This document shows positions 8,670-26,547 of a stretch of DNA of 64,000 nucleotides, one piece after another. The stretch lies in IMG/VR virus record IMGVR_UViG_3300009037_000004, positions 1 through 64,000 of that record. The stretch is one strand, 5' to 3'. The number at the start of each line of letters is the position of its first letter. Position 1 is the first letter of the stretch. The notes beneath the pieces are model-generated. The model made no database searches and was not told the DNA's origin. It saw nothing but the letters and a program-made list of their open reading frames with translations. Source of the stretch: a virus. Lineage: Duplodnaviria; Caudoviricetes. A program made the translations under genes and the position numbers.

Positions 8670-11559
8670 ACCCCTGATACACGGGCACCCCAGACTCTCT
8701 CATCGGACGGATGATGTCGGGGCGTGGCTGTTGGATCATTGACGCCAGAAGACAGTACAGAATCGAGTGGAAGGCGTCGTCCGTCTTCCCATGAGCGTGC
8801 TTGAACTCCTCCATCCTCAGCCGGTTGTTGTACTCGCTGAAGATGTTGAGGATGTCCTGACCGTAGGGATCAAAGAACTCCTCCCAGTTCGGCAGGTCCA
8901 CCAGCTTCTTCTTGAACGCCGTGAAGAGGTCGCTCATCACCTCTGATCGATGGCACATGTAGCGAAGGAGGTTCTGCTCCCAGTAGATCTTCTTCCTCTG
9001 CCGCGGGTTGTACTGGTACTTGATGACCTTGTTGGGTCCGAACCGCTGGATGAGGATCTTGTTGTTGTGGAAGCCCCCACCGTAGTCCACGCCCACGAGC
9101 TGAACGTGAAGCTGAGTGATCATCTGGGAGATGAGGTCGAGCTGTCTGTCCGGCTCAAGATCTGGCCCGGTGAAACGGTGCACCCAGAAGATGGTGAAGT
9201 TCCCGCCACCAAGATAGCCGCCGAAGCTGATCACGGTGTAGGTGTTCTCGCCCGTGTTGCCCTGATAGGCGATCGATCCATTCCGTTCCGTCACGATGTA
9301 GCCGGAAGGGACCTTGCAACAGTAGACCTTGCCATTGTAAGGAACACGCTCTACTCGATCTTTGAGAGCATTGAACTGGAAGTCCCGACCGCTGGACCAG
9401 AGAGCCCTCCATCGGGTCTTCCGGTTTCCAATAGCTTCCTTGTGGAGGCGAACCACGCAGCGTAGTCCCAGTCGGATGCAGAGTTCCTGGAAGTCCTCGC
9501 AAAGACCCCTTGAAGTGGAATAATAAGCGCCGTTATTGCAGTCCTCTCTCGGATCAATGTACCCATCACCCAATGTCATGGCATCAAAGAGAATCTGAAG
9601 TTGTCGTTTGGAGAGTCCCAGCACCCAACGTGGCAGGCGTTTAGTATCGCCCGTCCTTCCCACATTGAAATAGAACCAGTGCCAGAATTGCTTCCCTTTG
9701 ATCGTCCAATTCAGATCACCCGTCTCTTCGTTTGGGAACTCGGTGAAGGGGATTCCTAATCTTTCCATGCATTCCTTAATCCGAAGCGACTTGATTGGGG
9801 CAGCATCCTCGCGCTGAGACATCTTCAGGGAATAGGGAAACATGACAGTCGGGTCGGCTTTGCTGGGACGGAGGCAGACCCCACCTTCGGACACCACGTA
9901 TCCAAGGAACTCCAGCCAATCATCCATCCTGAAGGTGCGATGATCACACCCCACATATCCGGGGCTCTTCGGTAAAGCTGGCAACTGGAATAGTTCTTCC
10001 TCCCGGCCATGCCAGTCCACGTGACCAACGAACTTGACTACACTTCTTTCGGCAGTTTCTTCCGCCGTCTCCGTTGTCCATCGCGTGGCGTTTGGGCCAA
10101 GTACACGCATACGGTGGACATGATTCAGCATCATGTCCAAGCCCCGTGCTTTGAAATGCAGGAGTGGTTGATCCCAGTCCCGAACGGTTCTTTCTAGGGG
10201 CCGAACTAGCATCATCTCCCGGGTCTCAGGATCCCATTGGGCCACCAGATCATCGTCGGTGAGGTCACGGAAGTAGACGAAGCCACGCTGGGTGAGGATG
10301 CGGGTTTCCTCATCATGGCAACCCCAGTCAATCCCAGCGTACACGCGACGGCCTTGGGCGAGCTCCTTGAACTGCTCGATGTCACCCATCCGGATGTGAG
10401 ACTTGCAGCAAGACTGAAGTTGAGCCCTGGTGATCGGGCGGACACCAGAGTCATAGGACATCCCCAGCTTCTCGTTCATGAACTGGGCACGAGGATAATG
10501 CTCCTGCGCCTCCAGAACCTCCTGCCAATCAACCCAGGGGACCATGAGTTGAGGGATTCGATAACCCTCGAAGGCCACCTTGTTCTCATTCGAGGGCGTT
10601 CGGGGGTTCATGCTAGCCCACTTGGCCTGTGGATGGGCAGCACTGATCAGCTCTCCGCACTTGTCACAGACCAATCCTTGCTTGCCGATGTTCTTCTCCC
10701 CCAGCACATTCCAGTGCCACGAGCTGGGGTTGTTCGGCGTCCCGTGCCGCTCGCAGGGGACCACCCACTCATTCTGGGTGGAGAACTCCTGCCAGTAGTG
10801 TTCGATCGTGTTGTCCTCCGACTTCGGCGTGCCGGAGTAGAGGAACAACTTGTAGCTGGAGTGGAAGGCGCACTGCTCGATGATCGGGATGTTGTCCACC
10901 AGGATGTCCTGGAGCTCATCGATGCAGACCAGGTCGGCTGGGATGCCTCGGACTCGGTCGGCGGTGAGGTAAGCGTACCGCAGACGGATTTGGGAGAAGT
11001 TGATGAACTTCTTAAAGAACACGGCCTGGCTGATCTTCGTGGTGGTGTACGCCTTGAGGAGTGGAGAAGACTCCACCACGTCCTTGATGCGGTCCACCGA
11101 GAAGACCTTAGCCTGCTCCGCGGAAGGGGCGACGTAGAGAGAACGGAAGTTGTTGGTCAGCGCGGAGTAACAGAGCAGCCTGTTCCCCAACGTCGTGCTC
11201 TTCTCCACCTGCCGTCCGCACTTCAGAAGCACCTTGTCCGAGGCGGTATCGTAGATCCTACGGAGATACTCTCTGCCTTCGAAGGAGAACTGACTGACTC
11301 GGCCAGCTTCTGGGACCTGGATAGCTGTCTCAGCAAACTGGGAAGGGGAGACGTCGTAGATCAACAGCTCAGGGTTGAGGGCCAGCAGGTCTTCAGGAGT
11401 TGGATCTGGCGGCTCCTCATCGAACCCGAAGTCGGTGGGCTCCCCGTCCTCATTGTAGTCGAACCAGGGCTCCTTCACCCCACGATCGATGGACCAAACA
11501 AGGGGGATGGTCCGAGCTGACTGAAGGATCTCCGCCTCTGACAGGTTGATGACACTCAT
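8668..11559 (-). CDS. terL: Terminase large subunit (lambda gpA-like) with intein
   Basis: KCGRQVEKST P-loop, DRVRGIPAD, CIDELQD Walker B, SGTPK, nuclease motif GIDWG, and C-terminal DDAFHS. Confidence 0.9.
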   Translation of the reverse strand: MSVINLSEAEILQSARTIPLVWSIDRGVKEPWFDYNEDGEPTDFGFDEEPPDPTPEDLLALNPELLIYDVSPSQFAETAIQVPEAGRVSQFSFEGREYLRRIYDTASDKVLLKCGRQVEKSTTLGNRLLCYSALTNNFRSLYVAPSAEQAKVFSVDRIKDVVESSPLLKAYTTTKISQAVFFKKFINFSQIRLRYAYLTADRVRGIPADLVCIDELQDILVDNIPIIEQCAFHSSYKLFLYSGTPKSEDNTIEHYWQEFSTQNEWVVPCERHGTPNNPSSWHWNVLGEKNIGKQGLVCDKCGELISAAHPQAKWASMNPRTPSNENKVAFEGYRIPQLMVPWVDWQEVLEAQEHYPRAQFMNEKLGMSYDSGVRPITRAQLQSCCKSHIRMGDIEQFKELAQGRRVYAGIDWGCHDEETRILTQRGFVYFRDLTDDDLVAQWDPETREMMLVRPLERTVRDWDQPLLHFKARGLDMMLNHVHRMRVLGPNATRWTTETAEETAERSVVKFVGHVDWHGREEELFQLPALPKSPGYVGCDHRTFRMDDWLEFLGYVVSEGGVCLRPSKADPTVMFPYSLKMSQREDAAPIKSLRIKECMERLGIPFTEFPNEETGDLNWTIKGKQFWHWFYFNVGRTGDTKRLPRWVLGLSKRQLQILFDAMTLGDGYIDPREDCNNGAYYSTSRGLCEDFQELCIRLGLRCVVRLHKEAIGNRKTRWRALWSSGRDFQFNALKDRVERVPYNGKVYCCKVPSGYIVTERNGSIAYQGNTGENTYTVISFGGYLGGGNFTIFWVHRFTGPDLEPDRQLDLISQMITQLHVQLVGVDYGGGFHNNKILIQRFGPNKVIKYQYNPRQRKKIYWEQNLLRYMCHRSEVMSDLFTAFKKKLVDLPNWEEFFDPYGQDILNIFSEYNNRLRMEEFKHAHGKTDDAFHSILYCLLASMIQQPRPDIIRPMRESGVPVYQG
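9256..10320 (-). mobile_element. Intein (355 aa) with LAGLIDADG homing endonuclease
   Basis: Begins CHDEETRILTQRGF and ends VYCCKVPSG...AYQGN, followed by Thr+1. LAGLIDADG-like blocks FLGYVVSEGG and LFDAMTLGDG. More AT-rich than its flanks. Confidence 0.9.
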
Positions 11560-15232: not shown

Positions 15233-16510
15233 CTACTGGTTCACCGTCACGGTCTTGCTGCACAAGACTAACTTCATTTGGCTTGGGTTAGCCCCACTTG
15301 GTGTTGCCGTGTTCACAGTATCAGGCCCCTTCGTGACTCCTGCAACCGAGTGGCAATGCCCAGCCAACCATTGGACCAATTTTAGCCCAAGGGGTACGGG
15401 CTCAACAGCAGCTTCGCTTCCAAGCAGAAGCTTGGGAGCGGTGATGACCTTGGACGTTAGCCAGGTCTCCTTGCTGACTGTCCCCTTGATCGTGTGGGTG
15501 CCCGTGATAGTCGTGTCGGACTTGCCCAGGATCGTAGTGGTGTCGCTGCCAGTGATCTTGGTAGTCCGGCTCCCCTTGATTGTCAAACTATCACTCCCGC
15601 CAATCTCCTCCGTCCTGTCCCCCGACTGCTTCATGGATGTGTAGCCCGCTTTATCGATAAGCAGGGTGTACTCCGAAGAACCTGAGACTTCTCCAGTCGA
15701 GGGATCAATGCTTTCGGGGGCTACCGTGACCTCGATGAAAGCTGTGTCGTTCACGCTCTCAGACAAGCAACCTACGCTGACCTTGATCGAAGCCTTCTTA
15801 TCTTGGGCGTTCTCGCGGGCCAGGAGAGTGAACTCAGTTGGCGCATCCCCAGTGGGGTCATCCTCATCTCGACCCACGGTCCAGCTCAGCATCCCCGCAG
15901 CCGTGTTGAGCTCGTAATTCTCGCTGAAGTCGCGGATGTAGTTGAGGACCGGGATGTAGGCTCGCTGGCAGATGTTGGTCGCTCCGATCTGGAGCACACC
16001 ACCTCTGCGAAGCACCACGAAGTTCTCGTCCCTCCCCTGCCAGAGCATGTCGCCCGGGTTGAGGAGAGGCCGTCCACCGCGGAAGCTGGCATCGGGGGCG
16101 TTCTTGCTGGTCGAAGAGCCCCCGGACTTGGTGTCCGCTGCTGCGGAGAGATCTTCTTCACTCTCAACGCCGGCGTCCTTGGTCTTCTCCTCCAGGTACT
16201 TGTCAACGCTCGCCCCCTCCAGCTCTGGCCCGCCTAGAAACCCCATGATGAACGCCGGATCGCCATCTGAAGGCCAGCACACTGCACAGATCGCCCCCAC
16301 TTCTGGTACGCAGGAGAAGCCTTCCCCGTTGTTGAAGTGGAAGTAGGGAGTCATGATCTGAAGGTCGGTGATGTGCTTGCCGGAGAACTGGGAAACCCAA
16401 TCGGCAGTGAAGTTCTTGGTGTTGACGTTCGCGATCACGCCCGTCTCAATGATGGCTGCGCTCGTGCCGCGCTGAGTGGGTGAGTTGGAGAATGACTTAG
16501 CCGGAGGCAT
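15233..16510 (-). CDS. Baseplate central spike (gp5/gpV/VgrG-like)
   Basis: N-terminal OB-fold-like motif (PEVGAICAV...FIMGF), 8-residue beta-helix repeats (DRTEEIGG/SDSLTIKG/SRTTKITG/SDTTTILG) and a C-terminal HxH. Start moved to the TGATG overlap. Confidence 0.75.
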   Translation of the reverse strand: MPPAKSFSNSPTQRGTSAAIIETGVIANVNTKNFTADWVSQFSGKHITDLQIMTPYFHFNNGEGFSCVPEVGAICAVCWPSDGDPAFIMGFLGGPELEGASVDKYLEEKTKDAGVESEEDLSAAADTKSGGSSTSKNAPDASFRGGRPLLNPGDMLWQGRDENFVVLRRGGVLQIGATNICQRAYIPVLNYIRDFSENYELNTAAGMLSWTVGRDEDDPTGDAPTEFTLLARENAQDKKASIKVSVGCLSESVNDTAFIEVTVAPESIDPSTGEVSGSSEYTLLIDKAGYTSMKQSGDRTEEIGGSDSLTIKGSRTTKITGSDTTTILGKSDTTITGTHTIKGTVSKETWLTSKVITAPKLLLGSEAAVEPVPLGLKLVQWLAGHCHSVAGVTKGPDTVNTATPSGANPSQMKLVLCSKTVTVNQ

Positions 16511-16965
16511 CAGTAGTATCCGTATCCCTGCATCTGAGGCTGCGCCGGCGCTGTTTGCTGCGGCTGATGGTGGAGCAATTTCGACCCAGCATACAAGCCG
16601 GCTGCTCCAAGACCTGCCACGCCAGCCATCTGACCGTAGCGTGACTTCGCCAGAGCTCCAAGACCCCCCAGAACTCCGCCTTGCCTCGCGCCCATCATGT
16701 GCACTTGATTCGGGCCCCACATGAGAGCCCGCTCACCCGCCCCCTGCGTCCCTGACCGGTAGATCTGCCCGACGTGTCCGAGAATCCCCTGCGGCTTCCC
16801 CTCCACCAGTCTAGCCGCACCGCGAGACATCGCACTGGGTCCTCCTCGTAGGACCTGACCCCAACCCTTCATACCGCCCCCAAGGAAGCTCATGAGGCCT
16901 GCCTCCTTAGAGATCTGTTCGAGTTCATCCAAAAAGGCATTCTCTATGATCGCGTGCTTGTCCAT
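16510..16965 (-). CDS. Putative packaged Gly-rich membrane-type protein with AFLDELEQISKEAG leader
   Basis: Translationally coupled to the RNAP stop; leader, amphipathic Gly-rich body and TM-like end. Confidence 0.65.
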   Translation of the reverse strand: MDKHAIIENAFLDELEQISKEAGLMSFLGGGMKGWGQVLRGGPSAMSRGAARLVEGKPQGILGHVGQIYRSGTQGAGERALMWGPNQVHMMGARQGGVLGGLGALAKSRYGQMAGVAGLGAAGLYAGSKLLHHQPQQTAPAQPQMQGYGYY

Positions 16966-19900
16966 CAGTATTCCCAGGGCTTCTGACCCCGGCCGAAGTC
17001 GGCGCCATGCACGACCGGGGGAATGGGATGCTTGCCGTGCAGCTTCGACGTCCAGCCTTCCTGAGCCGCCTCGATCACTGTCTTGCTCAGATTCTGGTGG
17101 TTCAGCCTGGCGATCCAGTCTTCTTGCATGTCCAACGGCAGGACGTTTACACCCTTCAACACCGGCTGATGTACGATCGGCTTCTTCCCCTTGGGTAGCT
17201 GCCGATTGATGTTGGAGACCTGCGAAGTCGGAGCGAAGTCCCCGCGCAGGTAGCCGGTGTGATCGCCGACATCCTCAATCCGCGTGAGGTTCGTCAACGC
17301 CTTCACCACCACCTCGGTGTTCCTCCGGCGGATGCCGTGGGGCCCGTAGATTCCGTGAAGAGCATCTGAGAGGTAGCCCTGCACGGGCTCTACCCCGGTA
17401 AGCGGCAGCATCTCGTGAGGATTCACTGGGCCGCCAGAGAGGGGCATGCCCTTCTTCACTTCCATACCTGTCTGAAGAGACTTGCCCCCGAACTGGGGAA
17501 CGCCGCGGTTCTGGGGAACGTAGTGGCGCTTCCCGCCGACGTAGACGTTGTGTCCTCCAGCCGGATCTCTCTCGATCTTCTCGACCTTGCCGGATGCTGT
17601 GCTGAGAGTAGCCGAACCGGGGAGAGTCTTGGGGAAGAGGAGTAGGTGCTTCACCCGCTCGAACTCATCCACCAAGCCTTCCTTCGAGGATGCTGTGCCT
17701 CCCGTGTGGAACGCTTTCATCGCAAGCTGAGTGGCTCGTTCTCCCAGAGCTTGACCAGCCATCACGCCAACGTTGGTTCCTGGTTCCGGTAGGCGTCCTT
17801 CCTCATTCAACCCGAAGCACTTCTGACAGACACCCGGTCCATGATTACAGCGGAGCGGTGATCGAACTGGGACGAGTCCGATCTTGTTGTTCCGGAGGGT
17901 GCTGCGAACCTCTGGGGTGATGAGCGTGCCTGCCTTGAAGACCTTCTTCCCAGCCTTGATGTCTGAGGCCAGATGCCGATCCAGGATGTCCTTCTCATCG
18001 ACCGAGAGAGCGATCCCCCTGGTAGTCCCGCAGTCGTTGTCGATGACGACGTTGTTCATCACAGAGTTCATGACCTGCTTCGAAATGTAACCTGGCTCCT
18101 GGACCTGCTGAACCTTCTGGATGACTCCCTTTCGGGCACCCGACATCGAAGTCCAGTAGTCTGAGATGTCCAGGCCCTCAGCATACGACTTCCTGACCGG
18201 GGTGGGAATGATCTCACCTTTGGCGTTGGCGATGAGCATGGGAGATGCCTTGATCTGACGGACAGTCTCCGGCGACGCCTTCACACCAGCCTGCTTCATG
18301 ACCAGAATGTTGCTGCTGTCCTCGGGTAATAGATCCATTCTCCGCTGGAGTTCCTGGGTGGCTCGGTCGTAGATCTGTACGGTCTTCGCCTGCCGCTCCT
18401 TATCTGTCTTGGCGGAGATCTGTGCGACCGCAGCGTCCGCCTTGGCCATGACCTGATCCCGCATCTTTCTCTCTGGTCTGATGTCCTCCATCCCAAGTGT
18501 GAAGCCCTTCGCGGTGGACCAGTGGTTGCCCAAGTTCTTCAGCTTGTTCACCACGGTTCCGTAGTCGTTTCGATGATCTTGAGCCACCTGGGTGAGGAGA
18601 CGATCTTGACCCTTCTTGTCCAGCAGATCTTTGCTCCGAAGGAAGTCTCCTCTCATGGCTTCGGGAAGGGCCCCCGCAATCAGGAAGCGGCCGGCGTTCG
18701 CCGTGATAGTGCCGACCTTCACCTGATGGTTTGAATCAACCTCCCCTGTTCTCAGGGCACTCTCCAACTCCACCACAGTCTTGAAAGTCTTGCTGATCTT
18801 CTGCCCCGGCTTGGTGAGTCCGTAGAGGCCGAGCTGAGATTCCAACGTAGGCTTGTACATCAAGCTGCCGGTCGAGGGATTGAAGAGATTCCTAGACGGG
18901 TACATGCCCTTCGCTTCCTCAACCGCATCCGTCATCACCGGCACGAAGGCGGACATGGCATCGCCATCGAAGTCCGCGTTGTAGCCGGAAGTCACGAGAG
19001 GATGAATCTGGATCGCCTTCCCGGACACGATCTTAGGCTTGAATGCCTGAATGCCGTACTTGTGCAGGACGGGATCTCTCTTCAGCAACACTGGCCTGGA
19101 TTCCACCACCCGTTCCAGAGCTTTCTGCACCAGTGGGCCCCCTTCCTTCACCTGCTTCTGTGCAGCCAGCGGGGAGATGCCGGTGAGACCCCGCAATTCT
19201 CGAATCACGAATGGCTTGTAGAGCTCCAGCGCGGCCGCGCGAGGGATCCCCAGCTCATCCAATCCTAGTGAGGGTTCCGGTACGATCGTGGACCGCATGG
19301 AGAGGTCTTGCTTCCGCTGAGTGAGTTTCTTCTGGAAGAAACCTTCCTTCGGACTGCCGATCTTCTCCCCCGTCCCCTTACCGCCCTCCTTCTCCGGGCG
19401 CTTGCCCTGGAGGATGTCCAGCACACCACGGAAGTCCCTGTTGGCGTAGCCCCCAATGCCCGTGAGGGACTTCAGATGGTCGTAAACCTCGGCTCTGAGC
19501 TCGTGCTTCTCGCTCGGCGGCATCAATGGGGAGAGCTGCTCGAGCTTGTTAGCGGAGATCCCGATGAACTTGTACATCTGGTTGAGGTCATCGAAGTTGA
19601 GATCTCCATCCGGCCGCTGTGAAACAGGCCGCATGATCGGTGGGATCACCGGCACGTTCCGCATCAGGTAGGCGTCCTTGGGATGCAAGCCAGCCTCGGT
19701 CAGCGCGGTCAGGTAACGAACCTTCTTGTTCGCGCTGTCCAGCCGGTTGCCCTTCAAGTTCGGGTTCGCCAGCTTCTTCTTGGCGTCCTCGAGTTCCGCC
19801 TTGGGGTCAATCTTCTTCAGGAGATGCTCGAAGGCTACCCCTCCCGTGAGATGATCGTCTGTGTTGTTGCTCAGCTTCCCCGTCTTGGGATCAATAGCTG

Positions 19901-22900
19901 CCCGACCGGCGATGATGTCGTCGTACTGTTTCCCGTTCAGCCCAGTGAGGGACTGCACTGCTCTCTCGAACAGAGGATTGGGGTACAGTTCGGGCAGGCG
20001 GATGTGAGACCACTTCGTCCCGCCGTTTCCACCCGTGATCTTCGGATCGAACAGGCCGTCCTTCTCCTCCTTCAGGTCTTTCGCGCGAACCCAGCGACCA
20101 GGATCTTTGATCTGGCCATTGCTCATCTCCTCTACCTGCTTGTCGGTGAAGGGGATGAGCTGAAGGTTGTTGCCATTCTTCTTGACGTTCACACCCAGCG
20201 TATTCAGGTACGCCATGAACTTGTTGTAGGCGAACGTCGGGCGTGGGGCTGGGAGGGGCTCGCCGGCCTGGAGGGCGGACCAGAAGGCATCACCCTGGGC
20301 AGCATCACTTTTGACCGTCTGCATCTCCCGCAGGTTCGCTTTAGCCCCGTGAGCCAGCATTGAGTAGAGGCCAAGCTGGCCCAGAGCTTGCGCGCCATGC
20401 GGACCGCCCCCACGGGGGACCAGGTTCGCGTCGTAGGCGTATCCTGGTCCACCGGCACGAGCAATCATTTTCTTCTCGACCTGGTGCTTGAGCTTGATGA
20501 TGTGCTGGGGGCCGACTGTCACATCCCCGTAGCTCTTCCCAGTCGTGGGATCAACAACCTCTTCCTTGTCACTCAGCCCATGGGCCTTGAGATCTGCTGT
20601 GACCTTTTCATGTAGGTCGGCATTGGGGGAGAAGTTCTTGATGACGTAAGGCTTGCCCGTCTTTTCTGCGATCTTACCTGCAGCCGTCTCCAAGATCTGT
20701 CCCAGGTTCGTTCGACCAACTACGCCAGTGGGGTTCAGCAAGATCTCGAGTGGCTTCCCGTCCTTCGTGTGAGGCATCTCGTGATCTGGGATGACTTTCG
20801 TAACAATGCCCTTGTTCCCATGCCTCCCGGCCAGCTTGTCCCCCAGCTCCATAGGCTCCAGAGTCCGAACGTGAACCACCGCCTGCCGACCACGCTTGAT
20901 GACTTCGGTCACCACCCCAGGCCGATCTGCCTCCCATTTTACACTGTCATCTTTGAACGGCCTGATTAGGGAACGGTGCATTCGGGCAAGGTCCTTGTCC
21001 TCAACCTGCTCTGTCTTCTTTCGCAGAGCGGCGATGAGCGTGTCACCGGGCATCACTTGAACACCTGGCTTGATCAGACCATCGGCGTCTAGCTTGGCGG
21101 CCTGCTCTCGAGTCAGGGCATTGGGGACGTACGCCTGGAACTTCTCCTTGCTCAGGGTGAGGTTCGGATCGATGGCGATGCTCTTCCGGTGAAGATGCTC
21201 GCTGGCAAGACGCTGAGCCGCGGTCTCGCTGATGACGACTCCATCATCGAAGTTGTAGCCCTTGTAGGGCATGTAGCCCACCCGGAGATTGGTCCCCAAA
21301 GCTAGGGTCCCGTTCCTGGTGAAGTTGGTGTCGGCGATCGGCTGACCCCTCTTCACCTTATCTCCGACCTTCACGATGGGCTCGGAGTGCAGGAAGGACT
21401 TGTCAGCATTCAGCGGGAAGTGATCGTAGATTTGATGCTCGATCCTCTTACCTTGAGCATCCTTGACGACGATGTGGTCCTTTCCTACCCTCACGACCTC
21501 GCCGGAGATTCTGGAGGCGTGACCAGCGAAGTTGCCCACGATCTCATCAAACGTATTCTTGGCTGCCCCACTCTGAACCAGTGGGGCCTGCCGGTCGGCT
21601 AGGGGGATGGCCTGCTCCATGTGCCGGCCGGCCATCGTGCTCCGATTCGGGTGGTCGGCAGCCATGAAAGGGATGAGGTTCGAGGCAATGGAAAACATCT
21701 GGAGAGGATCACGCATCACGTACTGCGCGTCTTTCAAGTTCCCCTCCACTATCTCGTTCCCCGGCGCGCTGATCTTCACCTTCCCAGTAGCTGTCGGCTT
21801 GCCATTCTTCCACTGAACCTGGTCGGGGAGAACGAAACTGGACGCCATCGCTTTCTCAGGATTGACGTCCTCCATTTTACCCGTCTTGAGGTTGCGCATC
21901 TTGACTACGACGTCGTGGCCTCGCTTCTTCACCCCCATCGGAAGGCGTAGCGTCACACCCGTGGCTTGGCCCTCGGGTGTATGGATGGGATCAAGGAAGC
22001 CAAGGTGCGATGGGTCAATCAACTTGGCCTCTTCCGAGATTCCGTGTCCACTCTTGATGCCACCCTCCCCCATGATGGTCGTCTTCATCTGGGCGGAGAG
22101 CATCTCCAGAGGGTTGGTCTGGTCTGGGATGTTCGCCAGCGTCGTGTAGTACATCGTCCGGACAGGCTTCTGGAAGACGTCAGGTCCGATAATCTCTCGG
22201 ACCTTCTTCTTGCGATCCAGACTGTTCTGGATTCGCTGCATGATCCTCCGTGACTGATCTTGAATCCGCTCGGACATGAAGTCCTCGACCGAGTGCAGAT
22301 TCTTGAACATGAGCGCGTCACGAGAGTCCGGCTGGGCCTTACCCTGGGAGACGTGCAGGAGCTTGGTCGCTGCATCCAGAAGCACCGGGCCGGTGACCTT
22401 GGTGTACTCCTTGCCCAACGTGAGGCGCGTGGTCTCCGGGAGAAGGCGCGTCCCATCCAGGGTCTCGCGAAGATGCTGACGGGCCTGCTCGAGGTTGTCC
22501 GGCTTCTTCCCCGTGGAGGCTTTGAAGAACTTCAGCAGGGCCTGCTCACCGCTCTTCTGATTGGAGCCTGCGATCTCCTTCCCCCAGCGTGCTTCGATCT
22601 CTTCCGGCGGAGTGCCGAGTTCATGCAGAAGCGGACGGAGTGGGATGTTGGACGTGCCATAGCCCATCGTGAACTGGCGAGACTGAGGATTGAAGTCTAG
22701 GCTGAAGCCTCTTCCCTTGGCCAGGTTGAACTGGGACTCGAGCTCTCCGTTGTCCTTCACCCGCGCGTAGACACCAGACTTCAACCTCCATTGGTTGTCG
22801 ATCTGGTACTCCTGCCCATCCACGATGTGGGAGAAACGACGAGTGGTCTTGGGGAGACTCAGGAGGTTGATCTTCTTCTGGTCGATGACCTTGCCCGATT

Positions 22901-23129
22901 CGTTATCCTTCAACGCAACTGTGGCCTCCACTGGAACCGACCATGACCGCCCCATGGTCTTCGCTTGCTTTTGGGAACGGATGTCATCGATGTGGAGGTT
23001 GTCGTTGACCTGAACATCCTTCAGCTCAAGAGTGTTCTTTTTCCCAATGACAGGGAACAGCCCGCCAATGGTCTGGGTCACACGATCTTTGAGGATCTGG
23101 AATCCCTCTTCCGGGGACAGACGTGCCAT
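16965..23129 (-). CDS. rpoBC: Single-chain fused beta-beta' DNA-directed RNA polymerase
   Basis: Beta motifs GYNFDD, GDKLAGRHGNKG, LLNPTGVVGRTNLGQ and TVKSD continue in one frame into beta' motifs PVIPPIMRP, RDPVLH, NADFDGD (18960-18980), the bridge helix GARKG and the trigger loop GERATQLAMKAFHTGG. Confidence 0.95.
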   Translation of the reverse strand: MARLSPEEGFQILKDRVTQTIGGLFPVIGKKNTLELKDVQVNDNLHIDDIRSQKQAKTMGRSWSVPVEATVALKDNESGKVIDQKKINLLSLPKTTRRFSHIVDGQEYQIDNQWRLKSGVYARVKDNGELESQFNLAKGRGFSLDFNPQSRQFTMGYGTSNIPLRPLLHELGTPPEEIEARWGKEIAGSNQKSGEQALLKFFKASTGKKPDNLEQARQHLRETLDGTRLLPETTRLTLGKEYTKVTGPVLLDAATKLLHVSQGKAQPDSRDALMFKNLHSVEDFMSERIQDQSRRIMQRIQNSLDRKKKVREIIGPDVFQKPVRTMYYTTLANIPDQTNPLEMLSAQMKTTIMGEGGIKSGHGISEEAKLIDPSHLGFLDPIHTPEGQATGVTLRLPMGVKKRGHDVVVKMRNLKTGKMEDVNPEKAMASSFVLPDQVQWKNGKPTATGKVKISAPGNEIVEGNLKDAQYVMRDPLQMFSIASNLIPFMAADHPNRSTMAGRHMEQAIPLADRQAPLVQSGAAKNTFDEIVGNFAGHASRISGEVVRVGKDHIVVKDAQGKRIEHQIYDHFPLNADKSFLHSEPIVKVGDKVKRGQPIADTNFTRNGTLALGTNLRVGYMPYKGYNFDDGVVISETAAQRLASEHLHRKSIAIDPNLTLSKEKFQAYVPNALTREQAAKLDADGLIKPGVQVMPGDTLIAALRKKTEQVEDKDLARMHRSLIRPFKDDSVKWEADRPGVVTEVIKRGRQAVVHVRTLEPMELGDKLAGRHGNKGIVTKVIPDHEMPHTKDGKPLEILLNPTGVVGRTNLGQILETAAGKIAEKTGKPYVIKNFSPNADLHEKVTADLKAHGLSDKEEVVDPTTGKSYGDVTVGPQHIIKLKHQVEKKMIARAGGPGYAYDANLVPRGGGPHGAQALGQLGLYSMLAHGAKANLREMQTVKSDAAQGDAFWSALQAGEPLPAPRPTFAYNKFMAYLNTLGVNVKKNGNNLQLIPFTDKQVEEMSNGQIKDPGRWVRAKDLKEEKDGLFDPKITGGNGGTKWSHIRLPELYPNPLFERAVQSLTGLNGKQYDDIIAGRAAIDPKTGKLSNNTDDHLTGGVAFEHLLKKIDPKAELEDAKKKLANPNLKGNRLDSANKKVRYLTALTEAGLHPKDAYLMRNVPVIPPIMRPVSQRPDGDLNFDDLNQMYKFIGISANKLEQLSPLMPPSEKHELRAEVYDHLKSLTGIGGYANRDFRGVLDILQGKRPEKEGGKGTGEKIGSPKEGFFQKKLTQRKQDLSMRSTIVPEPSLGLDELGIPRAAALELYKPFVIRELRGLTGISPLAAQKQVKEGGPLVQKALERVVESRPVLLKRDPVLHKYGIQAFKPKIVSGKAIQIHPLVTSGYNADFDGDAMSAFVPVMTDAVEEAKGMYPSRNLFNPSTGSLMYKPTLESQLGLYGLTKPGQKISKTFKTVVELESALRTGEVDSNHQVKVGTITANAGRFLIAGALPEAMRGDFLRSKDLLDKKGQDRLLTQVAQDHRNDYGTVVNKLKNLGNHWSTAKGFTLGMEDIRPERKMRDQVMAKADAAVAQISAKTDKERQAKTVQIYDRATQELQRRMDLLPEDSSNILVMKQAGVKASPETVRQIKASPMLIANAKGEIIPTPVRKSYAEGLDISDYWTSMSGARKGVIQKVQQVQEPGYISKQVMNSVMNNVVIDNDCGTTRGIALSVDEKDILDRHLASDIKAGKKVFKAGTLITPEVRSTLRNNKIGLVPVRSPLRCNHGPGVCQKCFGLNEEGRLPEPGTNVGVMAGQALGERATQLAMKAFHTGGTASSKEGLVDEFERVKHLLLFPKTLPGSATLSTASGKVEKIERDPAGGHNVYVGGKRHYVPQNRGVPQFGGKSLQTGMEVKKGMPLSGGPVNPHEMLPLTGVEPVQGYLSDALHGIYGPHGIRRRNTEVVVKALTNLTRIEDVGDHTGYLRGDFAPTSQVSNINRQLPKGKKPIVHQPVLKGVNVLPLDMQEDWIARLNHQNLSKTVIEAAQEGWTSKLHGKHPIPPVVHGADFGRGQKPWEY

Positions 23130-23192
23130 CTTCAGCAATCTCCCGAGTCTTCGAGAGTCCCAAGACTCTCTTCGGGTGTAGCTAGTATGACC

Positions 23193-23222
23193 AAGCTACC
23201 AGATCGCAGCGGGGCAAGGCAA
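23193..23222 (-). promoter_or_regulatory. Sigma70-like promoter upstream of the RNAP gene, TTGCCT-N18-TAGCTT
   Basis: Weaker match, but has the same 18-bp spacer as the promoters at 7723 and 31008. Confidence 0.4.
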
Positions 23223-23248: not shown

Positions 23249-23278
23249 GAAACGATCATCTCGGATTGGGTATAAGGA
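23249..23278 (+). promoter_or_regulatory. Putative phage-RNAP promoter, GAAACGATCATC-N8-GGTATAAG
   Basis: Shares the upstream AAACG(G)ATCATC element and the core with the copy at 48141-48169. Confidence 0.6.
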
Positions 23279-23325
23279 AGGTAAGAGGCAGAGCTGCTTA
23301 ACCTCGTAGCCAAAGGAGAAAGAGA

Positions 23326-23460
23326 ATGGGACCTGAGGACCAAGAAGAGTTCGATCACATTGATGGAGATTCCCTCTCCGACTTCCAGGAGTTGGTCGAT
23401 GACCAACTTGAGGGAGGGGATTCGGATGAGGGTGGATCTGACAGCGGGGACGAGGAGTGA
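23326..23460 (+). CDS. 44-aa highly acidic peptide
   Basis: AAAGGAG RBS; MGPEDQEEFDHIDGDSLSDFQELVDDQLEGGDSDEGGSDSGDEE has 19 D/E and no K/R. Confidence 0.6.
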   Translation: MGPEDQEEFDHIDGDSLSDFQELVDDQLEGGDSDEGGSDSGDEE

Positions 23461-23582
23461 TTTTCCAGATCTTCGTCCTGTCTTTCCTCGCCGCCTTCCT
23501 TGAGGAGGTGGCCGCCGGGCTCTACGTCGCAGTGAGCGAAGCGAGGGAGCTGAGGGACGGACGGAGAACTGGGGACCACTAG
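23457..23582 (+). CDS. 41-aa peptide with hydrophobic N-terminus
   Basis: GTGA overlap; MIFQIFVLSFLAAFLEEVAAGLYVAV...; fills the gap to the next RBS. Confidence 0.45.
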   Translation: MIFQIFVLSFLAAFLEEVAAGLYVAVSEARELRDGRRTGDH

Positions 23583-23593
23583 GAGGTTCCCGA

Positions 23594-24070
23594 ATGGAAG
23601 ACGGATGCTTCGTCATGAACCCCGATCATAGCTGTGCCTTTTGCGGAGAACCGTTCGGCATAGAAGATGAACGGGAGTTCGTGCTTGTTGAATCGGGGCA
23701 AATGACACCAATGCGGAAAGACCCGCATTGCCTTCGATTCAGCGCCGACCATTCCAGTGAGTACGACGCCAAACTCAGGCGCCACGCCGTACTGGAGTTC
23801 TACCACGCGGACTGTTTCATTGATCGATTTCTACGGTCCGAGTGGGGCGCCAATTCTCCAACCTCATGCGATCTGTGTGGGGTGGACTTCCGAAGGGTGC
23901 GATGGGCGTTTCGTGTGAGGTTGGGACGACAGGATTTCGAGACGGGGATTTTCGTGCCTCTTGAAGATCCCCGGAACGAGACAATCCTTTGCCCAGAGTG
24001 CATCACGGAGGGCTTTGGAGAGGGAGACACGGAGGAAGGTGAACTACTCTTGGGCTCTGTGAGGAGGTAA
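23594..24070 (+). CDS. Zn-finger protein
   Basis: AGGAGG RBS; CAFC, HADC, CDLC and CPEC motifs. Confidence 0.7.
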   Translation: MEDGCFVMNPDHSCAFCGEPFGIEDEREFVLVESGQMTPMRKDPHCLRFSADHSSEYDAKLRRHAVLEFYHADCFIDRFLRSEWGANSPTSCDLCGVDFRRVRWAFRVRLGRQDFETGIFVPLEDPRNETILCPECITEGFGEGDTEEGELLLGSVRR

Positions 24071-24073
24071 CCG

Positions 24074-24505
24074 ATGACAAAGCGGGGAACGGCCTTTGTT
24101 GCGGACCCCGCTCTAGGGATCTGCACACGAGACGATCTCGACCGGCTCTGCCACGTAGAGCTGGACGAGGAAGTCAACACGTATCTGGCGAGATTCTCCA
24201 ACTCGGGGTTGCAGCTAGTGGCCGTGAACCCGGATGGAGAGCGGCACGCCAGTCGCGACCGGCTGTGCTTCTGGTACCCAAAGCTCCGAGCTCTGGAGCT
24301 GAAGGGACGACTCGTCAACCCAGAGATGGGAAGTGAGGAGGCGAAGTTCCGGGAGCACTACCGATGGCTCAAGGATTACCGGGTGGCGGCCTACTCCTGC
24401 ATCAAGAAGCAGGAGGCACAGCTAGAGAAGGTGACGAGGGAGGAGGCGGAAGCTGTCGCTCGGCAACAAGAGTTCGAATGGGCTCAGATGAAGAAAGGTT
24501 GCTAA
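24074..24505 (+). CDS. Hypothetical protein
   Basis: GAGGAGG RBS; convergent with the portal gene. Confidence 0.65.
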   Translation: MTKRGTAFVADPALGICTRDDLDRLCHVELDEEVNTYLARFSNSGLQLVAVNPDGERHASRDRLCFWYPKLRALELKGRLVNPEMGSEEAKFREHYRWLKDYRVAAYSCIKKQEAQLEKVTREEAEAVARQQEFEWAQMKKGC

Positions 24506-26547
24506 AGCAACTGAGCCTCGGGACCCCGCCGCGCTGGCCTCTGCTCCGGCAGAGGCCGCGCGGCGGCGGCTCCGGCCTGCGAAGGGCCATTGGCGCCACT
24601 CATCATTAGCCCCAAGACGACATCGTGGAGCTGGGGCTGCATCTCCTTGAGCTGGGCCAGCGCCTGGGGCTTCTGGGAAGGATCGAGGGCACTGAGCTTG
24701 TCGGCAAGTCCCCTTCCCAACAACAGGAGATCGACGTTGCTCTTCCCAGCCAGGTCTTCTCCTGTGGCGGTAGGGGCTACCGGCTGAACCGACTGGAGCG
24801 TGAGGGGCGACTTGATAGCCGGTGGTGGTTCAAGTAGCTCCGGATGCCGAGGAAGCGGCTGCATCGCCGGGTCTGGAGGCGGGGCCTCTCCACCCTGCTG
24901 CGCCGCCATCTGTTGCTGCTGCATACCACTCTGCATCTGTCCCTGGAAGGCGGCCTGGTCCTTAGCCATCTCGTTCTGGATGGCCATCTGCTCCTTCATC
25001 TGCTGGCTCTGGGCTTTGTTCTGCCACTTCATCTGAACCATCCCCGCCTCACCCTGGATCTCCGCCTGGAGGAGCTGCTGCTTCTTCGTGGAGGAGGCTC
25101 GCCTGGTGGCCTCCCGCTCCATGATCTTGTCTTCCTTCTCCGCATCGAAGTCGGCGTCCGCCATCAGACTCTCATCAGAGAGCTTGTTGGCCTGGTTGAG
25201 CTGGAAGAGGTACGCCTTCCGCTGAAGATCGTCGGCCATCTTGAACGGCTTGAAACGAGCCCGGACTGGGGACCACCCGAGGTACGAGCTGGTCCGCTTG
25301 ATGACCCACTTCATCAGAGTGACATGGTCCTGGAGGTAACCGAGGAAGGTATTCTCCAGCATCCGGAGACTGACGTTGCTGCCCGAGTAGCTGATGCCCC
25401 CAAACACGAGCTCCACTGGGATACCCATGCCGATTACAATCTGCTCGGACTGATTCCGCATCTCCTGGCTGAGAAGGAGCGCACGCCCATCACCACCGAT
25501 GGTCTGGTTGCCCAGGGGCAGTGGCATGATCGGCATGTAGTTGTTGTCTGCCCTCCATCGCCGGATCTCTGAGGAGACCTGATCCCTCCAATCCTGGAGG
25601 TTGACGGAAGTGTAGGGGTCGGACGTGGCTGAGCCCGACTGCGGGAAGAGGATGCGGAGAGGCACGATGTGCTCGAGAGCGATGGCCTCCTGCGCCTTCC
25701 TCAAGATCTGGAGGTAGAAGGTATCCTTCAACACGGGCAGGATGTTCGGCGTTCCCCAGCCTCGGTCCTTCCCGGCCAAGGTCGGGCGCTTGAAGTGGTA
25801 GATGTTGTCGCGGCTAAAGACCACCGCCATCTTCTTCTTGAGCGCCTCCACAAAGATCTGGGGGACAGTCTCAACCGTGGACTTCTTCCCGATGATGATG
25901 TCGTTCTTCAGAATCGTGGGGATCTCGTAGTAGTACTCGTACTCCCCGGTCTCGTTGATGTAGCGCACATCCACGTCCTCGGGATTCCACCGCAGAAGAC
26001 GGATGCCCTTGGGCGCCTTGATGTAGTGATCGTGAACCTTGGCTGGACCGTGATGCCCGCACTTCGAGCAGGTGATAATGAACTCGTAGTTTTGGAAGCG
26101 GTACTCTGAGTCCCTAGCAGGCTTGGTGTGATCGCAGTTCGGGCACTTCAGCATCTTCACGAACGGGTAGAAGATCGAGACCAGAGCGTTGCCGTAGGTG
26201 TGGTAGTCCAGCCCAACCTCGATCTGGAAGGACCGGTAGCGGAGGTGGTCGAGCAGAAAGTCGTTCCACTGGGCCTTCAACTCCGGCCGCTCAGTATCGA
26301 AGATGATGTCGGTGATGGGGTACTCCGACATCTTGAAGACGACTGCGTTGATCAGCGGGTTGACAAGGAAGTAGTACCGGCACCACCGGAACATCATCTT
26401 CACGGTGGCGGGCATGTAGGTGTGTGCGATGTCGAAGAAGGGACTGGGGTACTGGAGACCGTAATCTCCCGTGCCGCCCATTCTCCCGCGCGTGCTGGAG
26501 AAGCGCAGAGCGCCTTGAGAGCCCGTCATTCCAGAGCTATCAGCCAT
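24502..26547 (-). CDS. Portal protein with Zn-ribbon insert and Gln-rich C-terminus
   Basis: WCRYYFLVNPLINAVV helix, GNALV, IYHFKR..GWGTP and MGIPVELVFGG..YS are typical of phage portals; CPNC...CSKC insert. Confidence 0.75.
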   Translation of the reverse strand: MADSSGMTGSQGALRFSSTRGRMGGTGDYGLQYPSPFFDIAHTYMPATVKMMFRWCRYYFLVNPLINAVVFKMSEYPITDIIFDTERPELKAQWNDFLLDHLRYRSFQIEVGLDYHTYGNALVSIFYPFVKMLKCPNCDHTKPARDSEYRFQNYEFIITCSKCGHHGPAKVHDHYIKAPKGIRLLRWNPEDVDVRYINETGEYEYYYEIPTILKNDIIIGKKSTVETVPQIFVEALKKKMAVVFSRDNIYHFKRPTLAGKDRGWGTPNILPVLKDTFYLQILRKAQEAIALEHIVPLRILFPQSGSATSDPYTSVNLQDWRDQVSSEIRRWRADNNYMPIMPLPLGNQTIGGDGRALLLSQEMRNQSEQIVIGMGIPVELVFGGISYSGSNVSLRMLENTFLGYLQDHVTLMKWVIKRTSSYLGWSPVRARFKPFKMADDLQRKAYLFQLNQANKLSDESLMADADFDAEKEDKIMEREATRRASSTKKQQLLQAEIQGEAGMVQMKWQNKAQSQQMKEQMAIQNEMAKDQAAFQGQMQSGMQQQQMAAQQGGEAPPPDPAMQPLPRHPELLEPPPAIKSPLTLQSVQPVAPTATGEDLAGKSNVDLLLLGRGLADKLSALDPSQKPQALAQLKEMQPQLHDVVLGLMMSGANGPSQAGAAAARPLPEQRPARRGPEAQLL

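What the first reader, a model, noticed from the sequence alone, without database searches (positions are those of the whole stretch)
16965..23129. Compact single-chain beta-beta' RNA polymerase embedded among virion genes
Seen: one uninterrupted 2054-aa ORF carries bacterial-type beta motifs and then beta' motifs, including NADFDGD, with the junction near 20.3-20.1 kb. It is translationally coupled to a leader-tagged protein and the baseplate spike. I recognise no alpha, omega or sigma gene in the window. Known: cellular beta plus beta' total about 2700 aa and need alpha for assembly; phiKZ-like phages split these subunits rather than fusing them; a metagenomic Caudoviricetes lineage with multisubunit-type RNAP (mReC) has been described. 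Inference: this is a late-expressed, virion-packaged, possibly alpha/sigma-independent polymerase for early genes.
Basis: partly seen in the sequence, partly recalled or inferred. Interest (0 to 1): 0.85.

Follow-up and report, generated by a model that had tools for sequence, protein, structure and literature searches.

The report
Single-chain bacterial-type phage RNA polymerase
An uncultured large tailed phage from freshwater sediment encodes both big subunits of a bacterial-type RNA polymerase as one trimmed 2,054-residue protein. It belongs to a very large phage family that I found described in no paper.

Summary
Window 16968-23129 (-) is one intact 2054-aa gene in which a complete RNA polymerase beta module (residues 1 to about 985) runs directly into a beta' module (about 1003-2054). 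The catalytic motifs are intact.

It is compact because E. coli's lineage-specific inserts (SI1, SI2, SI3), much of the beta lobe and the beta' N-terminal zinc domain are absent.

It is not a captured bacterial gene. The 150 best 50%-identity clusters among 1.84 billion proteins are nearly all such fusions (35-67% identical), whereas bacteria reach only 28-31%. On a tree the fusions form one clade. That clade is sister to Salmonella phage Arash and Vibrio phage D69, which have beta fused to the N-terminal part of beta' and the C-terminal part as a separate gene.

The gene order portal, RNAP, spike, terminase is conserved in 30 related contigs. In Arash both RNAP proteins and a sigma-like protein were found in particles.

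The genome encodes a homologue of that sigma70-like protein outside the window, and it is conserved in relatives. The sigma docking elements are retained, so "sigma-independent" is not supported. No alpha or omega gene was found.

The scan has noted this family before on other genomes. Verdict: a new variant of a known kind; interest 0.65.

The parts
16968..23129 (-). Single-chain beta-beta' RNA polymerase CDS, 2054 aa (stop at 16965-16967)
20178..23129 (-). Beta module, residues 1 to about 984. It includes the fork region PIHTPEG and the GRHGNKG lysine loop. SI1, SI2 and most of the lobe are absent.
   Evidence: BLASTP against E. coli RpoB. Alignment blocks. The AlphaFold model matches bacterial beta chains over about 1100 columns, Foldseek E 2e-56.
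20940..21032 (-). Flap-tip region, residues about 700-730. In bacteria this is the docking site of sigma region 4.
   Evidence: Aligned to E. coli beta 885-920. It is 3 residues shorter and is conserved within the family.
20121..20177 (-). Beta/beta' junction, residues about 985-1003. It is a direct head-to-tail fusion with a very short linker.
   Evidence: Beta ends at residue 983 (E. coli beta 1338). Beta' residues 34-63 align to residues 1003-1033.
16968..20123 (-). Beta' module, residues 1003-2054. The N-terminal zinc-binding domain and SI3 are absent, and the C-terminal tail is short.
   Evidence: The protein has only four cysteines.
19455..19607 (-). Beta' clamp helices (coiled coil), residues about 1175-1225. 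In bacteria this is the main sigma region 2 docking site.
   Evidence: Aligned to E. coli beta' 260-312. It forms the predicted interface with the phage sigma-like protein.
18960..18980 (-). NADFDGD catalytic Mg loop, residues 1384-1390
   Evidence: It is the commonest intein or insert site in homologues (46 of the mapped insertions).
17817..18032 (-). Second zinc site of beta' (Cys1700, 1761, 1768, 1771). These are the only cysteines in the protein.
23193..23222 (-). Promoter-like element of the RNAP unit: TTGCCT, 18 nt containing TGG, then TAGCTT. It resembles a sigma70 extended -10 promoter and lies 93 nt upstream of the ATG.
   Evidence: The same architecture lies 57-86 nt upstream of the RNAP ATG in six closer relatives. 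It is not repeated elsewhere in the window. Function is inferred.
16510..16965 (-). 151-aa Gly-rich protein with an N-terminal AFLDELEQIS tag. Its start overlaps the RNAP stop (TGATG).
   Evidence: Weak homologues sit at the same place in 5 relatives.
15233..16512 (-). gp5-like baseplate spike. Its likely start is the ATG that overlaps the stop of the 151-aa gene.
   Evidence: Weak Pfam hits to Gp5_trimer_C and Gp5_C. The overlap was seen. The position is conserved.
24502..26547 (-). Portal protein
   Evidence: 33% identical to Arash portal Gp204, E 2e-80. Weak match to phrog_2833.
8668..11559 (-). Large terminase, at the end of the conserved block. It carries an intein-like LAGLIDADG insert.
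   Evidence: phrog_675 E 6e-58; Pfam GpA_ATPase and LAGLIDADG_3; homologous to Arash TerL.
23269..24505 (+). Plus-strand cassette between the portal and the RNAP: GGTATAAG motif at 23269, then ORFs 23326-23460, 23594-24070 and 24074-24505.
   Evidence: The plus-strand frames look like proteins; the minus-strand ORFs here are low-complexity. The divergent arrangement and the motif are conserved upstream of the RNAP in relatives.

Best explanation
The gene encodes an active DNA-dependent RNA polymerase core in which bacterial-type beta and beta' are joined head to tail in one 228-kDa chain. It belongs to an uncultured phage of roughly 180 kb from freshwater sediment or wetland. The phage is distantly related to Salmonella phage Arash.

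The fusion takes over the job that the alpha dimer does in cells, which is to hold beta and beta' together in a 1:1 ratio. That would explain why no alpha or omega gene is present.

Promoter recognition is supplied by a phage-encoded sigma70-family protein of 256 aa, encoded outside the window. It docks on the retained beta' clamp helices and beta flap.

The gene is a fixed member of the portal-to-terminase morphogenesis block. The enzyme, probably together with the sigma-like protein, is packaged into the particle and delivered with the DNA to start phage transcription. Because relatives have only one RNAP gene, the same enzyme probably also serves later in infection.

Shown here: the fused architecture, intact catalytic motifs, the domain losses, the family size, the conserved gene order, co-occurrence with the sigma-like gene, and the absence of detectable alpha and omega.

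Inferred: catalytic activity, the sigma partnership, independence from alpha, packaging and injection, and timing of expression.
For: Architecture and motifs:
- Pfam and NCBIfam matches cover both subunits.
- E. coli alignments give the junction and the retained or lost elements.
- The only four cysteines form the second zinc site.
- The beta model matches bacterial beta chains.

Selection:
- More than 100 full-length fusions are 46-78% identical.
- The top 150 clusters at 50% identity are nearly all fusions.
- Inserts in homologues cluster at the catalytic motifs.

Not bacterial:
- The best bacterial identity is 28-31%.
- On the tree, bacteria form one side (support 100), the fusions form one clade (93-97), and that clade is sister to Arash plus D69 (96).

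Structural block:
- The order portal, RNAP, spike, p673, p298, p227, TerL is kept in about 30 contigs, down to 43% RNAP identity.
- Arash has the same portal, small gene, RNAP order.

Packaging by homology:
- Arash Gp206 had the most spectra (3516) in particle proteomics. Gp216 had 1210 and the sigma-like Gp10 had 467 (PMC10585845).

Sigma:
- A homologue of Gp10 lies in this genome (E 4e-28). It matches Sigma70_r3 above the Pfam cut-off and r4 just below it.
- It is present in 4 of 5 long relatives.
- The complex model scores 0.72, against 0.00 for the best of 3 controls. In calibration that mark was reached by 58 of 80 solved complexes and 2 of 110 mismatched pairs. The three runs share at least 45% of contacts and the partner pLDDT is at least 71.
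- The interface is clamp helices 1175-1218 against sigma residues 69-89.
- This is a textbook-like pair, so the pass may only reflect likeness to solved holoenzymes.

Other subunits and polymerases:
- No alpha or omega in G000, or in the 95% and 89% complete relatives.
- One RNAP gene per genome.
Against: - No experiment exists for any full-length fusion.
- The Arash particle proteome listed 116 of about 270 proteins, including ribonucleotide reductases and ligases. Its authors themselves allow carry-over of abundant proteins.
- G000 is only about 75% complete, and divergent alpha-like or omega-like proteins could escape Pfam. Host alpha could still bind.
- The universally conserved beta motif GGQRFGEME reads GAQALGQLG here. 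The histidine equivalent to E. coli beta H1237 is not kept. The effect on activity is unknown.
- The promoter-like element upstream of the gene resembles a host sigma70 promoter. The gene could therefore be read by host RNAP soon after infection rather than late.
- The isolated-module structure models are of low global confidence (pTM 0.33-0.34).
Confidence: 0.55

Rival explanations
1. The polymerase is not a virion component. Host RNAP reads the gene from the conserved sigma70-like promoter after infection. The single-chain enzyme, with the phage sigma-like factor, then transcribes middle and late genes. Its place among structural genes is historical, and its presence in Arash particle preparations is carry-over.
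For: - A conserved TTGMC, 18 nt with TG, TAGNTT element lies upstream of the RNAP in the window and six relatives.
- Consensus host-type promoters exist elsewhere in the genome, for example a perfect TTGACA-16-TATAAT at 31478.
- The Arash proteome lists many clearly non-structural enzymes.
- There is only one RNAP gene per genome.
Against: - Gp206 was the protein with the most spectra in Arash particles, and Gp216 and Gp10 were also high.
- The gene is fixed between portal and spike, and coupled to the spike unit, across a very deep family.
- Giant single-chain virion RNAPs that are injected have precedents: N4 (from my own knowledge), and the crAss-like phi14:2 enzyme and the P23-45 tape-measure fusion (abstracts listed).
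Confidence: 0.27
2. The single chain initiates on its own, or with a non-sigma factor, as phiKZ-like and AR9 enzymes do. The sigma-like protein instead redirects the host RNAP.
For: - The beta' zinc-binding domain, which helps form the RNA exit and sigma region 3-4 surroundings in bacteria, is deleted.
- A non-sigma70-like motif, GGYATAAG, heads plus-strand cassettes. There are 5 in the window against about 1 expected, and 9 of the 10 in the genome lie on one strand.
Against: - The sigma-like gene co-occurs with the fused RNAP from this genome out to Arash.
- The clamp helices and the flap tip are conserved.
- The predicted docking is on the canonical site.
- Carin-5, a related phage with separate subunit genes, has its sigma gene directly beside its RNAP genes.
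Confidence: 0.12
3. It is a recently captured or contaminating bacterial rpoBC fusion (Helicobacter or Wolbachia type), or an assembly artefact joining two genes.
For: Bacterial rpoB-rpoC fusions exist, and NCBIfam NF007172 gives the best single hit.
Against: - The NF007172 score is 573 against a cut-off of 5372.
- Identity to bacteria is at most 31%.
- The gene falls in a separate clade.
- The same fusion is found in hundreds of independent assemblies with the same phage neighbours.
- DNA contigs from four further runs cover the gene without differences.
Confidence: 0.01

Closest known systems
RNA polymerase of Salmonella phage Arash (Gp206 + Gp216, with sigma-like Gp10; PMC10585845) and of Vibrio phages D69, D181 and D148
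   Same: - It is the sister clade on the tree.
- Beta is fused to beta'.
- The beta' zinc-binding domain is deleted.
- The GGQRFGEME motif is altered.
- The gene lies directly after the portal and a small gene.
- A homologous sigma70-like protein is present.
- Genomes are about 180 kb.
- There is one RNAP per genome.
   Different: - In Arash and D69 beta' is cut into two genes at about residue 1476 of this protein. That is the position where cyanobacteria split rpoC1 and rpoC2. Here the whole of beta' is in the same chain.
- Identity is only about 31-33%.
- In the passages I retrieved, the Arash paper annotates the proteins as beta and beta' subunits and does not remark on the fusion.
mReC, multisubunit-RNAP-encoding Caudovirales (Weinheimer and Aylward 2020, PMC7481178), and Cobetia phage Carin-5 (sigma, beta', beta operon)
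   Same: - These are phage-encoded, alignable, compact bacterial-type beta and beta' (about 1000 + 900 aa).
- They branch outside cellular clades.
- Carin-5 groups with the fused plus Arash clade (support 98) and has a sigma gene beside its RNAP genes.
   Different: - All mReC rows that I read (parts 9-10 of Supplementary Data 2) list beta and beta' as separate genes, and some contigs have two sets.
- mReC TerL and MCP are PF03237 and PF07068, whereas the TerL here matches PF05876.
- Carin-5 keeps the beta' zinc-binding domain, and its RNAP lies among replication genes.
phiKZ-like and AR9 virion and non-virion RNAPs
   Same: They are phage multisubunit-type RNAPs without alpha or omega. One set is packaged and injected.
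   Different: - Their beta and beta' are split into 4-5 polypeptides.
- They are much more divergent.
- They have no sigma70 homologue.
- They have two RNAP sets per genome (PMC7598289, PMC7824862).
- Here there is one chain, one set, and a sigma70-like factor.
Single-chain two-barrel virion RNAPs: crAss-like phi14:2 gp66, the P23-45 tape-measure fusion, and YonO
   Same: They are single polypeptides that carry both catalytic barrels. Those of phi14:2 and P23-45 are packaged in virions.
   Different: Those enzymes have no readily detectable sequence similarity to the cellular beta and beta' profiles (mReC paper). This protein matches them at E 1e-62 to 1e-156 and keeps the bacterial domain order.
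Bacterial RpoB-RpoC fusions (Helicobacter, Wolbachia; NCBIfam NF007172, NF011417)
   Same: They have the same head-to-tail order, beta then beta', in one chain.
   Different: Those are about 2840-2890 aa with all bacterial domains. By my own knowledge they still work with alpha2 and omega. This protein scores about a tenth of their family cut-offs and lies in a phage clade.

Membership tests
Multisubunit (two double-psi beta-barrel) DNA-dependent RNA polymerase, bacterial type | Beta' barrel with the NADFDGD Mg-binding loop | tested here: met
   Residues 1384-1390. Pfam Rpb1_2, E 3e-25.
Multisubunit (two double-psi beta-barrel) DNA-dependent RNA polymerase, bacterial type | Beta barrel with the conserved lysine loop (GRHGNKG) and the fork region | tested here: met
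   GRHGNKG and PIHTPEG are aligned to E. coli. Pfam Rpb2_6, E 1e-62.
Multisubunit (two double-psi beta-barrel) DNA-dependent RNA polymerase, bacterial type | Bridge helix, trigger loop and second zinc site in beta' | tested here: met
   There is a continuous alignment to E. coli beta' 177-939 and 1171-1346. Cys1700, 1761, 1768 and 1771 are present.
Multisubunit (two double-psi beta-barrel) DNA-dependent RNA polymerase, bacterial type | Beta' N-terminal zinc-binding domain and the beta GGQRFGEME motif | tested here: not met
   The zinc-binding domain is deleted, with no cysteines there. The motif reads GAQALGQLG. This is a family-wide departure, not a disruption of this copy.
Multisubunit (two double-psi beta-barrel) DNA-dependent RNA polymerase, bacterial type | Catalytic activity and assembly with alpha2 and omega | not testable with these tools
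   No alpha or omega genes were found. Binding of host alpha cannot be judged from sequence here.
Arash-like phage RNAP clade | Beta fused to beta', zinc-binding domain deleted, gene next to the portal, Gp10-like sigma in the genome | tested here: met
   Sister position on the tree.
Arash-like phage RNAP clade | Beta' split into two genes at the rpoC1/rpoC2-like position | tested here: not met
   Arash Gp206 aligns to nt 23057-18711 and Gp216 to nt 18692-16983 of one open frame.
mReC (PMC7481178) | Separate beta and beta' genes, each of at least 800 aa | tested here: not met
   There is one gene here. All mReC rows that I read (parts 9-10 of Supplementary Data 2) list two genes.
mReC (PMC7481178) | TerL of PF03237 and MCP of PF07068 | tested here: inconclusive
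   The TerL here matches PF05876, not PF03237. The MCP was not identified. No mReC sequences were in the tree, only the similar Carin-5.
phiKZ/AR9-type phage RNAPs | Beta and beta' each split into several polypeptides, no sigma70 homologue, two sets per genome | tested here: not met
   There is a single chain, a sigma70-like gene and one set. The phiKZ-type PHROGs match only weakly.
Bacterial RpoBC fusion (NF007172, NF011417) | Score above the family cut-off and placement within bacteria | tested here: not met
   Scores are 573 against a cut-off of 5372, and 502 against 4632. The gene falls in a separate clade.
Sigma-70 family (for the partner protein, G000 88928-89698) | Regions 2, 3 and 4 | tested here: inconclusive
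   Region 3 scores 29.7, above the cut-off of 25.3. Region 4 scores 21.5, below the cut-off of 24.1. Region 2 is not detected by Pfam here, though it is weakly detected in Arash Gp10. NCBIfam sigma models match weakly.

The most novel reading that the evidence does not exclude
The single chain and its sigma-like partner form a two-polypeptide, alpha- and omega-free holoenzyme. It is packaged in the head, threaded through the tail and refolded in the host. It is the only RNA polymerase the phage needs from first to last gene. The beta-beta' fusion evolved so that a bacterial-type polymerase can be delivered and reassembled in a 1:1 ratio. This would be the hallmark of a very large phage lineage (at least 150 clusters at 50% identity) that has not been recognised.
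Probability: 0.3. Interest if true: 0.8.

Novelty: new variant of a known kind. Interest (0 to 1): 0.65.

Why it matters
Cellular RNA polymerases need the alpha dimer to assemble beta and beta'. Phage multisubunit polymerases known so far are either shattered into many pieces (phiKZ, AR9) or so divergent that they barely align (crAss-like, YonO).

This family keeps an easily alignable bacterial-type core and a sigma70-like factor. Yet it is one chain of about 2050 residues with no alpha, no omega, no zinc-binding domain and no lineage-specific inserts.

If it is active, it is a natural minimal bacterial-type polymerase. It would be a tractable system for three things:
- asking what alpha, omega and the zinc domain are really needed for;
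- asking how a 228-kDa enzyme is packaged and delivered through a tail;
- biotechnology, as an orthogonal polymerase encoded by two genes.

The family is very large and widespread in freshwater, sediment and soil metagenomes. It has cultured outliers (Arash, Vibrio D69) on which the predictions can be tested.

Tried and rejected
- Megablast of the locus against cultured phages found nothing.
- Pfam searches for Sigma70_r2, alpha (PF01000, PF01193), omega (PF01192) and T7-type RNAP (PF00940) in the genome and two near-complete relatives gave no hit. The PF00940 control rang nowhere, so that search is uninformative.
- AlphaFold of the isolated beta and beta' modules gave low global confidence (pLDDT 65 and 63, pTM 0.34 and 0.33). 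Only the beta model was searched, and it added little beyond sequence homology.
- The conserved -10-like word upstream of the RNAP (CTGGTAGNTT) is not enriched elsewhere in the window, with 5 matches against 7.4 expected. It is not a general promoter motif.
- Near-consensus sigma70 promoters are not more numerous than in shuffled sequence, 5 against 6.2.
- In my first tree the two Carin-5 genes were concatenated in the wrong order. Repeating with the right order gave the same topology.
- Wetland metatranscriptome contigs match the RNAP and its neighbours at 99% or more in short pieces. DNA carry-over in RNA libraries cannot be excluded and contigs give no strand or level, so I do not count this as evidence of expression.
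- Parts of the stretch without RNA cover are not interpreted.
- The minus-strand ORFs 23182-23616 and 23800-24318 between the portal and the RNAP were rejected as genes. Their translations are low-complexity, and protein-like ORFs lie on the opposite strand.
- Seven paper searches and readings of the jumbo-phage reviews found no description of the full fusion. The library is limited to open papers.

Full report
OBSERVATION

The minus-strand ORF ending at 16965 is real. Translated from the ATG at 23129 it gives 2054 residues without a stop. The ATG has GGGAG 9 nt upstream, and homologues begin with the same residues.

Pfam places RNA_pol_Rpb2_6 (E 1e-62) and Rpb2_3 in the first half, and Rpb1 domains 1, 2, 3 and 5 in the second half. 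NCBIfam matches the bacterial rpoB and rpoC models at E 1e-100 to 1e-156, but far below their equivalog cut-offs.

NADFDGD is at residues 1384-1390. The stop overlaps the start of a 151-aa gene (TGATG). The stop of that gene overlaps, in the same way, the probable start of a gp5-like spike gene.

ANATOMY

BLASTP against E. coli RpoB and RpoC, fetched, gives the map (alignment blocks).
- Beta ends at residue 983 (E. coli beta 1338 of 1342).
- Beta' residues 34-63 align to residues 1003-1033. The fusion is therefore head to tail with almost no linker.
- Retained: the fork region PIHTPEG, GRHGNKG, the flap with a flap-tip segment of nearly normal length, the beta' clamp helices, NADFDGD, the bridge helix, a short trigger loop, and the second zinc site.
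- The protein has only four cysteines, and all four are in that zinc site.
- Absent: beta SI1 and SI2, most of the lobe, the beta' N-terminal zinc-binding domain, SI3, and the long C-terminal tail.
- Two near-universal beta features are changed across the family: GGQRFGEME reads GAQALGQLG, and the histidine equivalent to E. coli H1237 is not kept.

An AlphaFold model of the beta module has a confident N-terminal third. It matches bacterial beta chains over about 1100 columns (Foldseek E 2e-56). Both isolated-module models have low global confidence.

WHOSE GENE IS IT

The window is part of a 137-kb IMG/VR virus record estimated at 75% complete. Near-identical DNA occurs in freshwater-sediment and wetland or soil metagenomes from several studies.

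Around the gene lie a portal (33% identical to the Arash portal, E 2e-80), a spike, and a large terminase with an intein-like insert. On the other strand lies a replication block with helicases, a DnaB-like helicase, a family A DNA polymerase and a recombinase.

A FAMILY, NOT A ONE-OFF

A search of 5.8 billion proteins returned more than 100 full-length fusions of 2037-2109 aa at 46-78% identity. Many longer ones carry intein or homing-endonuclease domains.

An exhaustive HMMER search with the beta' half against 1.84 billion cluster representatives gave a top 150 (35-67% identity) that are nearly all such fusions, or fragments of them.

In 100 longer homologues the insertions cluster at PIHTPEG, GRHGNKG, NADFDGD and the trigger loop. 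These are the most constrained sites of an active polymerase.

Bacterial genomes reach only 28-31% identity.

On a 59-row tree of concatenated beta and beta' (IQ-TREE quick search, LG+G4, about 2000 columns):
- the 15 bacteria form one side (support 100);
- the 39 fusions form one clade (93-97);
- that clade is sister to Arash plus Vibrio D69 (96);
- Cobetia phage Carin-5 comes next (98, on a long branch).

Caveats: the bacterial sampling is dominated by Bacillota, there is no archaeal or mReC sequence, and the search was the quick one.

CLOSEST DESCRIBED RELATIVES

In Arash and in Vibrio phages D69, D181 and D148, beta and the N-terminal 40% of beta' are one gene of 1525 aa, directly after the portal and a small gene. 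The rest of beta' is a separate gene of about 606 aa. The break corresponds to residue 1476 here. That is the position at which cyanobacteria split rpoC1 and rpoC2.

These phages share the zinc-domain deletion and the altered GGQRFGEME motif with the fused family.

The mReC paper defines its lineage by separate beta and beta' genes. Every metagenomic-phage row that I read in its Supplementary Data 2 (parts 9-10) lists two genes, of about 1000 + 900 or 1365 + 1000 aa. Its TerL and MCP families differ from what I find here.

I found no paper that describes the complete fusion. Earlier follow-ups in this scan reached the same reading on other genomes.

CONTEXT IS CONSERVED

In about 30 IMG/VR contigs the order is kept: p636, p245, p308, p310, portal, RNAP, (p151), spike, p673, p298, p227, TerL. 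This holds down to 43% RNAP identity.

In this genome the stretch between the portal and the RNAP is probably not coded on the minus strand. The minus-strand ORFs there are low-complexity. Three protein-like plus-strand ORFs follow a GGTATAAG motif at 23269. The reverse complement of that motif, followed by a divergent small acidic gene, is conserved upstream of the RNAP in relatives.

Closer to the RNAP start lies a promoter-like element, TTGCCT, 18 nt containing TGG, then TAGCTT (23193-23222). It is shared in position and architecture by six closer relatives but is not repeated elsewhere in the window.

The RNAP therefore appears to head its own unit, together with p151 and the spike, under a sigma70-type promoter. 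Which holoenzyme reads it is unknown.

SIGMA, ALPHA, OMEGA

Arash Gp10, annotated as a sigma factor, has a homologue in this genome at 88928-89698 (-), outside the window (29% identity, E 4e-28). It matches Sigma70_r3 above the Pfam cut-off, matches r4 just below it, and matches NCBIfam sigma models weakly.

It is present in four of five relatives with long contigs, including a 95% complete one. The exception is a 64% complete fragment. Carin-5 has a sigma gene directly next to its RNAP genes.

A complex model of the sigma-like protein with residues 1001-1430 scored 0.72, against 0.00 for the best of three controls. In calibration that mark was reached by 58 of 80 solved complexes and 2 of 110 mismatched pairs. 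The three runs shared at least 45% of contacts and the partner pLDDT was at least 71. The interface is the clamp helices (1175-1218) against sigma residues 69-89, which is the canonical region 2 contact. Because sigma-core complexes are textbook structures, this shows likeness to them rather than independent proof.

No alpha or omega domain was found in this genome or in the 95% and 89% complete relatives, and the controls rang in all reference genomes. Each relative has a single RNAP gene.

PACKAGING

The only experimental evidence is from Arash. In particle proteomics Gp206 had the most spectra of any protein (3516). Gp216 had 1210 and Gp10 had 467 (PMC10585845).

That study listed 116 proteins, including obvious enzymes, and its authors allow that abundant infection proteins may be carried over.

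The deep conservation of the gene inside the morphogenesis block and its coupling to the spike unit fit packaging. They do not prove it.

MECHANISM PROPOSED

A single-chain beta-beta' core, in which the fusion replaces the assembly role of alpha, works with a phage sigma70-like factor. The enzyme, and probably the factor, is packaged and delivered with the DNA to start transcription. As the only phage RNAP, it probably also acts later.

My confidence by step:
- active polymerase: about 0.9;
- sigma partnership: about 0.7;
- packaging: about 0.6;
- the whole statement: 0.55.

The main rival (0.27) is a non-virion middle/late polymerase whose gene is read by host RNAP. A bacterial capture or assembly artefact is excluded.

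VERDICT

This is a new variant of a known kind: phage-encoded bacterial-type RNAP of the Arash and mReC sort, here as a complete fusion with characteristic domain losses, in a very large family I found undescribed. Interest is 0.65.

Noticed in passing
window 8668-11559 (-): The large terminase is 963 aa. The ATPase part covers residues 69-415 and more terminase similarity covers 768-859. A LAGLIDADG-like segment (663-727) lies between them, so there is probably an intein. Relatives match only the first 420 or so residues in one piece.
   Followed up: partly
window 8353, 11596, 23269, 31082, 48160 (+); G000 99459, 102113, 122310, 122732 (+), 133196 (-): GGYATAAG occurs 5 times in the window against about 1 expected, all on the plus strand. 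Nine of the ten copies in the genome are on that strand. The copy at 23269 heads the plus-strand cassette next to the RNAP, and its position is conserved in relatives. It is a candidate phage-specific promoter element and resembles a T4 late -10 box.
   Followed up: partly
L021:9870-10000 and L022:9850-10000: In two relatives a short ORF repeating the first 10 or so codons of the RNAP (MARLSPEEGF... or MARLDPEEGL...) lies just upstream of the full-length gene. This may be the footprint of a mobile insertion at the 5' end.
   Followed up: no
homologues P0003-P0266 (100 proteins longer than 2300 aa): Inteins or other inserts interrupt many family members, up to 4739 aa. The hotspots are PIHTPEG (13), the GRHGNKG region (29), NADFDGD (46) and the trigger loop (33). 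The gene in this window has none.
   Followed up: partly
window 16510-16965 (-); L040:889-1488 (+): The 151-aa protein after the RNAP begins with ...NAFLDELEQISKEAG. A protein encoded just upstream of the sigma-like gene in a relative carries GSFFDELVKLAKD. This is the recurrent FxDELxK tag that first readers noted on unrelated late proteins, and it may be a capsid-targeting or protease signal. The RNAP itself lacks it.
   Followed up: no
window 31478-31505 (+): A perfect TTGACA-16-TATAAT lies at the head of the plus-strand replication block. Three other sites with one mismatch occur in the genome (7752, 121549 and 133086, minus strand). They are likely host-RNAP promoters.
   Followed up: no
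L125 (Cobetia phage Carin-5, PV155638.1 119641-126466): This cultured phage has an operon of sigma factor, beta' (1083 aa) and beta (927 aa) among replication genes. Both RNAP genes are annotated 'subunit beta'. It keeps the beta' zinc-binding domain and groups with the fused plus Arash clade.
   Followed up: partly
window 12000-31500: Wetland metatranscriptome runs from one study contain many contigs of 150-350 nt that are 99% or more identical to the structural block, including the RNAP. This hints that the phage is active in that habitat, but DNA carry-over cannot be excluded.
   Followed up: partly
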